Below are positions 58,385 through 61,300 of a stretch of 64,000 nt of DNA, in pieces. Position numbers: made by a program. The stretch is taken from the NCBI RefSeq assembly GCF_017348835.2, contig NZ_CP071375.1, one strand, 5' to 3'. Position 1 is the stretch's first letter. Each line of letters begins with the position of its first letter. This DNA comes from Escherichia coli (GTDB lineage Bacteria; Pseudomonadota; Gammaproteobacteria; Enterobacterales; Enterobacteriaceae).

Positions 58385-61300
58385 TTAATTCCACTGTGAA
58401 AACGAATATTTATTTTGCGTTCCCGTTTGTTTTATTTTTGTTAACATTTAATATAATTATTATTAACCTCGTGGACGCGTTAATGGCTAACTCATAATGG
58501 GTATTCAATAAGCTGCATTCTGTGATTGTTATCACATTTTTGTTTCGGGTGAATAGAGGGCGATTTTCCGTTAACTTTTGTTATTAATCAGTTTGTTATG
58601 TTCTTTTGTGGGTAAAAAAATAGCATCTGACTTTCAATATTGGTGATCTATAAAACAATATTGAAAATTTCTTTTTGCTACGCCATGTTTTCAATATTGG
58701 TGAGGAACTTAACAATATTGAAAGTTGGATTTATCTGCGTGTGACATTTTCAATATTGGTGATTAAAGTTTTATTTCCAAATTAAAGGGCGTGATATCTG
58801 TAATTAACACCACCGATATGAACGACGTTTCCTTCATGATTTCTGGAGATGCAATGAAGATTATTACTTGCTATAAGTGCGTGCCTGATGAACAGGATAT
58901 TGCGGTCAATAATGCTGATGGTTCATTAGACTTCAGCAAAGCCGATGCCAAAATAAGCCAATACGATCTCAACGCTATTGAAGCGGCTTGCCAGCTAAAG
59001 CAACAGGCAGCAGAGGCGCAGGTGACAGCCTTAAGTGTGGGCGGTAAAGCCCTGACCAACGCCAAAGGGCGTAAAGATGTGCTATCGCGCGGCCCGGATG
59101 AACTGATTGTGGTGATTGATGACCAATTCGAGCAGGTACTGCCGCAACAAACGGCGAGCGCACTGGCTGCAGCCGCCCAGAAAGCAGGCTTTGATCTGAT
59201 CCTCTGTGGCGATGGTTCTTCCGACCTTTATGCCCAGCAGGTTGGTCTGCTGGTGGGCGAAATCCTCAATATTCCGGCAGTTAACGGCGTCAGCAAAATT
59301 ATCTCCCTGACGACAGATACCCTCACCGTTGAGCGCGAACTGGAAGATGAAACCGAAACCTTAAGCATTCCGCTGCCTGCGGTTGTTGCTGTTTCCACTG
59401 ATATCAACTCCCCACAAATTCCTTCGATGAAAGCCATTCTCGGCGCGGCGAAAAAGCCAGTCCAGGTATGGTCGGCGGCGGATATCGGTTTTAACGCAGA
59501 GGCAGCCTGGTCAGAACAACTGGTTGCCGCGCCGAAACAGCGCGAGCGTCAGCGCATCGTGATTGAAGGCGACGGCGAAGAACAGATCGCCGCATTTGCT
59601 GAAAATCTTCGCAAAGTCATTTAATTACAGGGGATGCTATGAACACGTTTTCTCAAGTCTGGGTATTCAGCGATACCCCTTCTCGTCTGCCGGAACTGAT
59701 GAACGGTGCGCAGGCTTTAGCTAATCAAATCAACACCTTTGTCCTCAATGATGCCGACGGCGCACAGGCAATCCAGCTCGGCGCTAATCATGTCTGGAAA
59801 TTAAACGGCAAACCGGACGATCGGATGATCGAAGATTACGCCAGTGTCATGGCTGACACTATTCGCCAGCACGGCACAGACGGCCTGGTGCTGTTGCCAA
59901 ACACCCGTCGCGGCAAATTACTGGCGGCAAAACTGGGTTATCGCCTTAAAGCGGCGGTGTCTAACGATGCCAGCACCGTCAGCGTACAGGACGGTAAAGC
60001 AACAGTGAAACACATGGTTTACGGCGGCCTGGCGATTGGCGAAGAACGCATTGCCACGCCGTATGCGGTACTGACCATCAGCAGTGGCACGTTCGATGCG
60101 GCTCAGCCAGACGCGTCACGCACTGGCGAAACGCACACCGTGGAGTGGCAGGCTCCGGCTGTGGCGATTACCCGCACGGCAACCCAGGCGCGCCAGAGCA
60201 ACAGCGTCGATCTCGACAAAGCCCGTCTGGTGGTCAGCGTCGGTCGCGGCATTGGCAGCAAAGAGAACATTGCGCTGGCAGAACAGCTTTGTAAGGCGAT
60301 AGGTGCGGAGTTGGCCTGTTCTCGTCCGGTGGCGGAAAACGAAAAATGGATGGAGCACGAACGCTATGTCGGTATCTCCAACCTGATGCTGAAACCTGAA
60401 CTGTACCTGGCGGTGGGGATCTCCGGGCAGATCCAGCACATGGTTGGTGCTAATGCATCGCAAACCATTTTCGCCATCAACAAAGATAAAAACGCGCCGA
60501 TCTTCCAGTACGCGGATTACGGCATTGTTGGCGACGCCGTGAAGATCCTTCCGGCGCTGACCGCAGCTTTAGCGCGTTGATCCACTCTGGCAGGGCTGCA
60601 TTACGGCCCTGCCGCTGACAGGGAGCTCTTATGTCCGAAGATATCTTTGACGCCATCATCGTCGGTGCAGGGCTTGCCGGTTCGGTTGCCGCACTGGTGC
60701 TCGCCCGCGAAGGTGCGCAAGTGTTAGTTATCGAGCGTGGCAATTCCGCAGGTGCCAAGAACGTCACCGGCGGGCGTCTCTATGCCCACAGTATGGAACA
60801 CATTATTCCTGGTTTCGCCGACTCCGCCCCCGTAGAACGCCTGATCACCCATGAAAAACTCGCGTTTATGACGGAAAAGTCAGCGATGACTATGGACTAC
60901 TGCAATGGTGACGAAACCTCGCCATCCCAGCGTTCTTACTCCGTTTTGCGCAGTAAATTTGATGCCTGGTTGATGGAGCAGGCCGAAGAAGCGGGCGCGC
61001 AGTTAATTACCGGGATCCGCGTCGATAACCTCGTACAGCGCGATGGCAAAGTTGTCGGCGTAGAAGCCGATGGCGATGTGATTGAAGCGAAAACGGTGAT
61101 CCTTGCTGATGGGGTGAACTCCATCCTTGCCGAAAAATTGGGGATGGCAAAACGCGTCAAACCGACGGATGTGGCGGTTGGCGTGAAGGAACTGATCGAG
61201 TTACCGAAGTCGGTAATCGAAGACCGTTTTCAGTTGCAGGGTAATCAGGGCGCGGCTTGCCTGTTTGCGGGATCACCCACCGATGGCCTGATGGGCGGCG

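What the first reader, a model, noticed from the sequence alone, without database searches (positions are those of the whole stretch)
58632..58758. Triple array of a 14-bp repeat forming 11-bp inverted-repeat pairs with 13-bp spacers in the caiT-fixA intergenic region
TTTCAATATTG-N13-CAATATTGAAA occurs twice (58632-58666 and 58689-58723), with a third half-site at 58748-58758 next to the fixA start. This matches the published description of CaiF binding sites as two 11-bp inverted half-sites separated by 13 bp in the divergent cai/fix control region. The regular spacing of about 57 bp and the unpaired third half-site suggest cooperative or asymmetric activation of the two promoters.
Basis: partly seen in the sequence, partly recalled or inferred. 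Interest (0 to 1): 0.35.

Follow-up and report, generated by a model that had tools for sequence, protein, structure and literature searches.

The report
Known CaiF operator plus conserved fifth box
The repeats are the already published binding sites of the carnitine regulator CaiF between the E. coli cai and fix operons; the only new point is that the unpaired fifth copy sits inside the fix core promoter and is the most conserved copy across enteric bacteria.

Summary
TTTCAATATTG occurs exactly five times in the 64-kb window, all within 58632-58758. Four copies form two perfect inverted repeats with 13-bp spacers. The locus is the E. coli caiT-fixA intergenic region. The two inverted repeats are the published CaiF sites F1/F2, letter for letter, and match the four CaiF half-sites in a RegulonDB-derived table. 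This part is already known.

The spacers carry CRP-like motifs centred 57 bp apart. With the perfect CRP site at 58521-58536, they fit the recalled published map (CRP at -41.5 of cai, -69.5 and -126.5 of fix). That map puts the fix start near 58776.

The unpaired fifth box (58748-58758) is 96 bp from the fixA ATG. It lies in the spacer of the predicted fix promoter, at about -28 to -18, and is absent from the RegulonDB-derived list.

Across about 36 species of 21 genera the layout is n inverted repeats plus one terminal unpaired box, with n = 0, 1, 2 or 3. The terminal box module is the most conserved block.

I infer that this box is a real CaiF contact in the core promoter. CaiF's paralogue GrlA acts at the LEE1 promoter spacer, and MelR and AraC use promoter-proximal sites. 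This inference is untested.

The parts
58632..58666 (.). Cai-side (distal to fix) CaiF inverted repeat, TTTCAATATTG-N13-CAATATTGAAA. It is one of the published sites F1/F2, centred about -127 from the inferred fix start and about -161 from the inferred cai start.
   Evidence: (I7). Sequence identical to the published site. RegulonDB-derived K-12 42181-42196 and 42200-42215, mapped by the alignment.
58642..58657 (.). CRP-like motif GGTGATCTATAAAACA inside the 13-bp spacer (7/10 to TGTGA-N6-TCACA), centre 58649.5. It fits the recalled published CRP site 3 at -126.5 of fix.
   Evidence: The position assignment rests on my recollection of the Buchet 1998 abstract, which is not held.
58689..58723 (.). 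Fix-side (proximal) CaiF inverted repeat, the other of F1/F2, centred about -70 from the inferred fix start.
   Evidence: (I3). K-12 42238-42253 and 42257-42272. The 35-nt stretch is found at 80% or more coverage in 5386 of 5426 E. coli genomes.
58699..58714 (.). CRP-like motif GGTGAGGAACTTAACA in the spacer (8/10), centre 58706.5. It fits the recalled CRP site 2 at -69.5 of fix.
58748..58763 (+). Terminal unpaired CaiF box TTTCAATATTG plus GGTGAT extension. It is identical over 16 nt to the left half of the distal repeat. It is not in the RegulonDB-derived CaiF list and has no partner half-site.
   Evidence: (D2). Conserved in all 20 genera aligned. The 45-nt block around it is at least 99% identical in 5108 of 5383 E. 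coli genomes.
58741..58769 (+). Predicted fix core promoter GTGACA-17 bp-TAAAGT. The terminal box lies wholly within its spacer. The inferred transcription start is near 58776.
   Evidence: Consensus scan. The start is inferred from the CRP geometry plus recalled literature positions. It was not measured here.
58768..58776 (+). Conserved GTTTTATTT directly after the box module. TTTTAT at 58769-58774 aligns with TATTAT in distant genera and is an alternative -10 element.
   Evidence: (majority fraction 0.95).
58521..58536 (.). Perfect CRP site TGTGATTGTTATCACA (CRP1). If it is centred at -41.5, the cai start is at about 58487 on the minus strand.
   Evidence: The -41.5 value is recalled from the literature.
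56867..58381 (-). caiT, first gene of the cai operon (caiTABCDE).
58854..59624 (+). fixA, first gene of the fix operon (fixABCX).
   Evidence: translation [10 protein letters not shown]....
50750..51145 (+). caiF, 131 aa, the regulator that binds the boxes.
   Evidence: ORF. Pfam PF07180 CaiF_GrlA, 28.5 bits against a cut-off of 25.

Best explanation
The array is the CaiF operator of the divergent cai/fix control region of E. coli.

Shown or published: the two 35-bp inverted repeats are the published CaiF sites F1 and F2. Each spacer contains a weak CRP-like motif concentric with the repeat. CaiF and CRP co-activate both operons, and activation needs the CaiF co-activator crotonobetainyl-CoA.

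Shown here by comparison: the fifth, unpaired box belongs to a 29-bp module, TTCAATATTGGTGA-N5-GTTTTATTT. This module is embedded in the fix core promoter, at about -28 to -18 of the inferred start. It is retained in every cai/fix-bearing enterobacterial genus aligned, while the number of full inverted repeats upstream varies between 0, 1, 2 and 3.

Inferred: the terminal box is a genuine CaiF contact point for one subunit, and occupying it is the promoter-proximal step of fix activation. CaiF could remodel the promoter spacer, as its paralogue GrlA is reported to do at LEE1 P1. Alternatively it could act like the weak promoter-proximal sites of MelR and AraC, which fill only when inducer is present. 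On this view the upstream inverted repeats, together with CRP, are lineage-specific additions that load CaiF and couple the cai promoter.

Unequal exchange between the 16-bp direct repeats spaced 57-59 bp apart would explain the changes in copy number.
For: - Identity with the published F1/F2 sequence.
- Coordinates match the RegulonDB-derived list.
- Locus identity and presence of the regulator gene.
- CRP-like motifs are centred at 58649.5 and 58706.5, 57 bp apart. The perfect CRP site is at 58528.5. One fix start (58776) and one cai start (58487), 289 bp apart, satisfy the recalled -126.5, -69.5 and -41.5 positions.
- An independent consensus scan places GTGACA-17-TAAAGT so that the -10 element ends 7 bp before 58776.
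- Layout of n inverted repeats plus a terminal box across genera.
- Majority-fraction conservation over 14 genera is 0.94 for the box, 0.91 for GTGAx and 0.95 for GTTTTATTT. It is 0.77-0.84 for the proximal inverted-repeat halves and 0.41-0.66 elsewhere. These are ungapped alignments, so the repeat values are slightly underestimated.
- The terminal box is unpaired in all 20 genera (4-7 of 11 matches, against 10-11 for true pairs).
- The box-to-fixA-ATG distance is 103-109 bp in 24 of the 26 Enterobacteriaceae/Morganellaceae species (92 and 139 in the other two).
- In Providencia the inverted repeats are degenerate but the terminal box is perfect.
- Edwardsiella, which has a box but no inverted repeat, has caiF.
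- GrlA, of the same Pfam family, is reported to bind the 18-bp spacer of LEE1 P1: PMC10877973.
- Biosensors use the fix promoter as the CaiF/crotonobetainyl-CoA output.
Against: - No binding data for the fifth box are available to me. Papers quoting Buchet 1999 mention only two CaiF sites, and the RegulonDB-derived table has only four half-sites. Purified CaiF may therefore not protect the box in vitro.
- The transcription start and CRP positions are recalled from abstracts I could not open.
- The predicted fix spacer is 17 bp, not the suboptimal 18-19 bp typical of GrlA or MerR targets.
- The E. coli -10 candidate TAAAGT is not conserved outside the Escherichia/Citrobacter/Salmonella group. 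The promoter geometry may therefore differ, with TTTTAT or TATTAT as the -10 and the box at about -33 to -23.
- Conservation of the box could partly reflect RNA polymerase constraints rather than CaiF.
- The LEE1 spacer resembles the CaiF box only weakly.
Confidence: 0.9

Rival explanations
1. The fifth box is a non-functional leftover. It would be the first 16 bp of a further tandem copy of the 57-59-bp unit, cut off by the promoter, and CaiF acts only through F1 and F2.
For: The literature quoted here names only two sites. The RegulonDB-derived list omits the box. The units look like tandem duplicates: a 51-nt stretch is 75% identical (D1), and linker identity is 0.41-0.54.
Against: A neutral remnant should decay. 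Instead the box is the best-conserved block across 14-20 genera. It is present even where no inverted repeat exists. It stays perfect in Providencia while the inverted repeats decay. The 45-nt block around it is at least 99% identical in 5108 of 5383 E. coli genomes.
Confidence: 0.15
2. The fifth box is conserved as part of the fix core promoter read by RNA polymerase (spacer or -35-proximal DNA). CaiF does not bind it. The upstream inverted repeats would then have arisen by copying promoter DNA.
For: The box lies between the predicted -35 and -10 elements. It is contiguous with the conserved GTTTTATTT or TATTAT -10-like element.
Against: Promoter spacers are not normally conserved base for base. 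The box stays identical to the bona fide CaiF half-sites, including the GGTGA extension, in lineages as distant as Hafnia, Edwardsiella and Proteus. That is hard to explain unless the same protein reads both.
Confidence: 0.2
3. The fifth box is a negative site. CaiF bound at -28 to -18 would occlude RNA polymerase, limiting fix expression at high CaiF levels or in the absence of inducer.
For: A position inside the core promoter is typical of repressor sites.
Against: In genera where the box is the only CaiF-type sequence in the region, the sole site would have to be a repressor site for a protein known as an activator. The fix promoter is used as a positive CaiF output.
Confidence: 0.1
4. The repeats are a dispersed repetitive element (REP/IRU/BIME type), or are CRP/FNR sites, and are unrelated to CaiF.
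For: The sequence is AT-rich and palindromic. CRP-like motifs overlap the spacers.
Against: The median is 2 and the maximum 3 places per genome in 5388 genomes. There is no other exact copy in the window and no Rfam family. The position is orthologous and conserved across genera. The boxes themselves do not match the CRP or FNR consensus; only the spacers do.
Confidence: 0.01

Closest known systems
CaiF binding sites F1 and F2 of the E. coli cai-fix control region (Buchet et al. 1999, as quoted in PMC12083890 and PMC3680233; the four RegulonDB half-sites in the PMC3716798 supplement)
   Same: The sequence TTTCAATATTG-N13-CAATATTGAAA, the two copies, the location between caiT and fixA, and the coordinates after mapping to K-12 are all identical.
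   Different: Nothing differs for the two inverted repeats. The fifth unpaired box at K-12 42297-42307 is not among the listed sites.
GrlA at the LEE1 P1 promoter of EHEC/EPEC (CaiF_GrlA family, PF07180)
   Same: The regulator belongs to the same small protein family as CaiF. Its reported target lies inside the -35/-10 spacer of the activated promoter (PMC10877973). The fifth CaiF box likewise lies inside the predicted fix spacer.
   Different: The LEE1 spacer is a suboptimal 18 bp, whereas the predicted fix spacer is 17 bp. The sequences resemble each other only weakly. CaiF additionally has upstream dimer-type sites and CRP partners. CaiF binding to the spacer box is not shown.
MelR at melAB and AraC at araBAD: arrays of upstream sites plus a weak promoter-proximal site overlapping -35 that fills only with inducer, with CRP bound within the array (from general knowledge, not checked here)
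   Same: There are several upstream activator sites and CRP embedded in the array. One extra promoter-proximal site could be the inducer-dependent trigger.
   Different: The protein family is different (AraC/XylS). The CaiF box is a perfect copy of the half-site, not a degenerate one, and lies downstream of the -35 position.
MerR-family activators (operator inside a long promoter spacer)
   Same: The operator position is between -35 and -10.
   Different: MerR operators are full dyads in 19-20-bp spacers. Here there is a single half-site in a 17-bp spacer, and the protein fold family is unrelated.

Membership tests
Published CaiF operator site (F1/F2 type) | Two perfect 11-bp inverted half-sites, TTTCAATATTG and CAATATTGAAA | tested here: met
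   against the sequence quoted. Both pairs are perfect.
Published CaiF operator site (F1/F2 type) | 13-bp spacer between half-sites | tested here: met
   (I7: 13 nt between arms). The second pair, 58689-58699 and 58713-58723, has the same spacing.
Published CaiF operator site (F1/F2 type) | Located in the divergent caiT-fixA control region, at the catalogued coordinates | tested here: met
   K-12 42181-42272 corresponds to window 58632-58723.
Published CaiF operator site (F1/F2 type) | Bound by purified CaiF (gel shift, DNase I footprint) | not testable with these tools
   Published for the K-12 sequence. The evidence codes include 'Binding of purified proteins'. The half-sites in the window are identical to K-12.
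CaiF site, applied to the fifth box 58748-58758 | Partner half-site 13 bp away | tested here: not met
   4 of 11 matches at a 13-bp spacer. The best across 20 genera is 4-7 of 11, against 10-11 for true pairs.
CaiF site, applied to the fifth box 58748-58758 | Half-site sequence identical to bona fide half-sites and under purifying selection | tested here: met
   (16 of 16 identical to the distal left half). Conservation.
CaiF site, applied to the fifth box 58748-58758 | Experimental CaiF occupancy, or listing as a CaiF site | tested here: not met
   Absent from the RegulonDB-derived list. The papers quote only F1 and F2. Occupancy itself cannot be tested here.
Dispersed repeat (REP/IRU/BIME) | Many copies scattered in the genome | tested here: not met
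   1-3 places per genome; no copy elsewhere in the window.
CRP site | Match to TGTGA-N6-TCACA | tested here: inconclusive
   the motifs in the two spacers score 7/10 and 8/10, and CRP1 scores 10/10. The CaiF boxes themselves are not CRP sites. CRP binding at sites 2 and 3 is recalled from Buchet 1998 and was not verified.
GrlA/MerR-like spacer-acting activation | Activator target lies between the -35 and -10 elements of the activated promoter | tested here: inconclusive
   Met for the predicted promoter and the inferred start. However, the start was not measured here, and an alternative -10 element would shift the box to about -33 to -23.
GrlA/MerR-like spacer-acting activation | Suboptimal (18 bp or longer) spacer that the activator compensates for | tested here: not met
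   predicts a 17-bp spacer.

The most novel reading that the evidence does not exclude
The 'orphan' box is the ancestral and essential CaiF target, not an appendix. On this reading a single CaiF box fused to the fix core promoter (TTCAATATTGGTGA-N5-GTWTTATTT) is the universal CaiF-responsive element of Enterobacterales. CaiF acts on it from within the promoter spacer, as its paralogue GrlA does at LEE1. The textbook F1/F2 dimer sites are later additions, variable in copy number (0-3 copies), generated by unequal exchange between the 16-bp direct repeats. This could also explain the recalled 1998 report that a 50-bp segment overlapping the fix start is required for cai transcription.
Probability: 0.35. 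Interest if true: 0.45.

Novelty: already known. Interest (0 to 1): 0.22.

Why it matters
For the scan, this finding is a correct rediscovery of a characterised operator, so it needs no further attention as a novelty.

The by-product is modest but concrete. The comparative data single out the unlisted fifth box and its promoter module as the invariant part of the system. If CaiF acts there, three things follow:
- It would give the CaiF/GrlA family a common mode of action at promoter spacers.
- It would revise the two-site model of cai/fix control.
- It would identify the element to engineer in the carnitine biosensors built on the fix promoter.

Tried and rejected
- Primary papers were not available. 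Buchet 1998, Buchet 1999, Eichler 1996 and Islam 2011 are not held. A search for the numeric promoter positions returned only noise. PMC8085414 contains none of the search terms (CaiF, intergenic, PcaiT, promoter). The transcription starts and the CRP2/CRP3 positions therefore rest on my recollection plus a consistency check against the sequence.
- Dispersed-repeat hypothesis: rejected on copy number.
- Known RNA family: none. The only Rfam hit is a meaningless snoRNA match at E = 0.54.
- Conserved RNA structure in the fix leader: RNAalifold finds none.
- Degenerate partner for the fifth box, tested with spacers of 10-16 bp and in 20 genera: none found.
- FNR half-sites between the repeats: no match of 7/10 or better within 58600-58790. 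The best FNR-like matches (8/10) overlap CRP1 and lie at 58578-58591.
- Similarity between the LEE1 P1 spacer and the CaiF box: only weak, so it is not used as evidence.
- My first fixA translation was off by one base and was corrected. The fixA ATG is at 58854.
- Small ORFs between the box module and fixA in Edwardsiella and Hafnia: nothing conserved.
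Full report
**1. Observation.**
The 11-mer TTTCAATATTG occurs exactly five times in the 64-kb window, at 58632 (+), 58656 (-), 58689 (+), 58713 (-) and 58748 (+), and nowhere else. Allowing one mismatch gives 12 hits against 1.77 expected, and none of 100 shuffles reaches 12.

The first four copies form two perfect inverted repeats with 13-bp spacers, at 58632-58666 and 58689-58723. The direct repeat is 14 nt exact in three copies (TTCAATATTGGTGA). It extends to 16 nt, with start-to-start spacing of 57 and 59 bp (D2).

The fifth copy has no partner. 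It scores 4 of 11 at the canonical spacing and at most 6 of 11 for spacers of 10-16 bp.

One detail needs correcting. The fixA start codon is at 58854, so the fifth box is 96 bp from the coding start. It is close to the transcription start, not the gene start.

**2. Identity of the locus and of the two inverted repeats.**
The 601-bp region matches the caiT-fixA intergenic region in 5394 of 5426 complete E. coli genomes. It is 100% identical to strain PE164 and 97.5% identical to the K-12 strain TG1.

caiT is at 56867-58381 (-) and fixA at 58854-59624 (+). caiF lies at 50750-51145 (+) and matches Pfam PF07180 CaiF_GrlA.

Two held papers quote Buchet et al. 1999. [quoted passage not shown]

A RegulonDB-derived table in the supplement of PMC3716798 lists four CaiF half-sites at K-12 42181-42196, 42200-42215, 42238-42253 and 42257-42272, with the evidence code 'binding of purified proteins'. 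Their flanks match the K-12 row of my alignment, and they map to window 58632-58723.

The two inverted repeats are therefore the known CaiF operator.

**3. What lies between and around the boxes.**
A consensus scan finds a perfect CRP site at 58521-58536. It also finds CRP-like motifs exactly concentric with the two inverted repeats: GGTGA-N6-AAACA centred at 58649.5 and GGTGA-N6-TAACA centred at 58706.5.

From my recollection of the Buchet 1998 abstract (the paper is not held):
- the two transcription starts are 289 bp apart;
- CRP1 is at -41.5 of cai;
- CRP2 is at -69.5 of fix;
- CRP3 is at -126.5 of fix.

A single pair of starts satisfies all four numbers on this sequence: cai at 58487 and fix at 58776. 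Independently, the promoter scan proposes GTGACA (58741-58746), a 17-bp spacer and TAAAGT (58764-58769) on the + strand, which suits a start at 58776.

I treat this map as probable but not verified. No FNR-like match of 7/10 or better lies between the repeats.

On this map the inverted repeats are centred at -127 and -70 of fix, and at -161 and -218 of cai. The fifth box occupies -28 to -18 of fix, entirely inside the promoter spacer.

**4. Alternatives excluded.**
The 35-nt repeat has a median of 2 and a maximum of 3 places per genome in 5388 E. coli genomes. It is therefore not a REP/IRU-type element. Rfam gives nothing.

**5. Comparative anatomy (the new part).**
I fetched 80 caiT loci from one-genome-per-species contigs and analysed the DNA upstream of caiT, in window orientation.

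The architecture is n inverted repeats followed by one terminal unpaired box pointing towards fixA:
- n = 2 in Escherichia, Citrobacter, Salmonella, Phytobacter, Pseudocitrobacter and Intestinirhabdus.
- n = 1 in Pluralibacter, Yokenella, Trabulsiella, Atlantibacter and two unnamed Enterobacteriaceae.
- n = 3 in Proteus, with a strict 59-bp period.
- Degenerate repeats but a perfect terminal box in Providencia.
- n = 0 (terminal box only) in Leminorella, Limnobaculum, Edwardsiella, Hafnia and a Serratia isolate.
- In Budvicia the box module is duplicated at a 27-bp period.
- Exception: in Entomohabitans I found one inverted repeat but no terminal box at up to 2 mismatches.

The terminal box is part of a module, TTCAATATTGGTGA-N5-G(T/G)T(T/A)TTATTT. 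In an ungapped comparison of 14 genera this is the best-conserved block of the region. Majority fractions are 0.94, 0.91 and 0.95 for its three parts. The proximal inverted-repeat halves score 0.77-0.84 and other positions score 0.41-0.66.

Its distance to the fixA ATG is 103-109 bp in 24 of the 26 Enterobacteriaceae and Morganellaceae species examined. It is unpaired in all 20 genera tested.

Within E. coli, the 45-nt stretch around it is at least 99% identical in 5108 of 5383 genomes. In a divergent strain the whole segment from the distal repeat to fixA is almost invariant, while the segment between CRP1 and the distal repeat is riddled with substitutions.

Edwardsiella, a box-only genus, is reported to have caiF (PMC2764856).

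The box is not in the RegulonDB-derived CaiF list. I could not check whether the 1999 paper discusses it.

**6. How it most likely works.**
- *Published:* CaiF occupies F1 and F2. CRP binds in the region. Both are needed for the two operons. Crotonobetainyl-CoA is the co-activator, and the fix promoter is the output used in biosensors.
- *Shown here:* the CRP-like motifs sit in the middle of the CaiF dyads. The two palindromic CAATATTG cores of a dyad are 21 bp apart, which is two helical turns. The conserved GGTGA follows only the left boxes, including the terminal one.
- *Inferred:* the terminal box is a real CaiF contact inside the fix core promoter, and it is the step that actually switches the promoter on.
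- *Precedents:* GrlA, in the same family, is reported to act through the spacer of LEE1 P1 (PMC10877973). I confirmed the LEE1 P1 sequence upstream of ler. From general knowledge, MelR and AraC use a promoter-proximal site that fills only with inducer.
- *Copy number:* the upstream dyads vary in number and would then be auxiliary loading and coupling sites. Unequal exchange between the 16-bp direct repeats is a simple way to gain or lose 57-59-bp units. Linker similarity between units is modest (0.41-0.54), so this is only suggestive.

Caveats:
- Only two CaiF sites are reported in the literature available to me.
- The predicted spacer is 17 bp, not an over-long one.
- Outside the Escherichia/Citrobacter/Salmonella group the GTGACA and TAAAGT hexamers are not conserved. 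The conserved TTTTAT or TATTAT could be the -10 element there, which would move the box to about -33 to -23.

Either geometry keeps the box within the core promoter.

**7. Rivals.**
- A neutral remnant of duplication is contradicted by the conservation.
- Conservation purely as promoter DNA read by RNA polymerase is possible. It does not explain why the box stays identical to the CaiF half-sites in all lineages.
- A negative auto-limiting site is possible but awkward for the box-only genera.

**8. Verdict.**
It is ordinary as a scan hit. The one modest, testable extra is the invariant fifth box in the fix core promoter.

Noticed in passing
window 58791-58812 (GTGATATCTGTAATTAACACC), about +16 to +37 of the inferred fix transcript: A second conserved element, consensus RTGNTANYTNTW, sits at a fixed +43 from the terminal box start in all 20 genera, including the box-only ones. 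There is no consensus RNA structure and no Rfam hit. Several genera show a single NarL-heptamer-like TACYYMT here, judged by eye. Its function is unknown. It may belong to the recalled '50-bp region overlapping the fix start' that is needed for cai transcription.
   Followed up: partly
window 58791-59624: A GTG at 58791 opens an ORF in frame with the fixA ATG at 58854, adding 21 codons. The frame is also open in Pluralibacter but closes after 4-8 codons in RIT691 and Yokenella. It is probably not an N-terminal extension.
   Followed up: partly
window 58510-58625: In E. coli strain DETEC-S586 the segment between the perfect CRP site and the distal CaiF repeat carries dozens of substitutions. 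The DNA from 58625 to fixA, and the first 128 bp next to caiT, are almost invariant. This is a sharp mosaic boundary inside one intergenic region.
   Followed up: no
L030 (Proteus mirabilis), upstream-region positions 317-552 in window orientation: Proteus has three full CaiF-type inverted repeats plus the terminal box at an exact 59-bp period. The two distal repeats carry TTGAT instead of GTGAT after the left box.
   Followed up: partly
L049 (Budvicia), L023 (Leminorella), L044 (Limnobaculum): In Budvicia the terminal-box module is tandemly duplicated at 27 bp. Leminorella and Limnobaculum have an extra CAATATTGAAA box 35-36 bp upstream of the fixA ATG.
   Followed up: no
L057-L082 (Campylobacter, Shewanella, Ferrimonas, Desulfovibrio, Malaciobacter): CaiT homologues of 68-74% identity occur outside Enterobacterales. 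They have no CaiF-type box within 900 bp upstream, and often no adjacent fixA. This suggests horizontal spread of the transporter without the CaiF control region.
   Followed up: no
window 50848-50858: A one-mismatch half-site, TTTCGATATTG, lies inside the caiF coding sequence. Seven one-mismatch hits lie outside the operator against about 1.8 expected. This is probably a composition effect.
   Followed up: no
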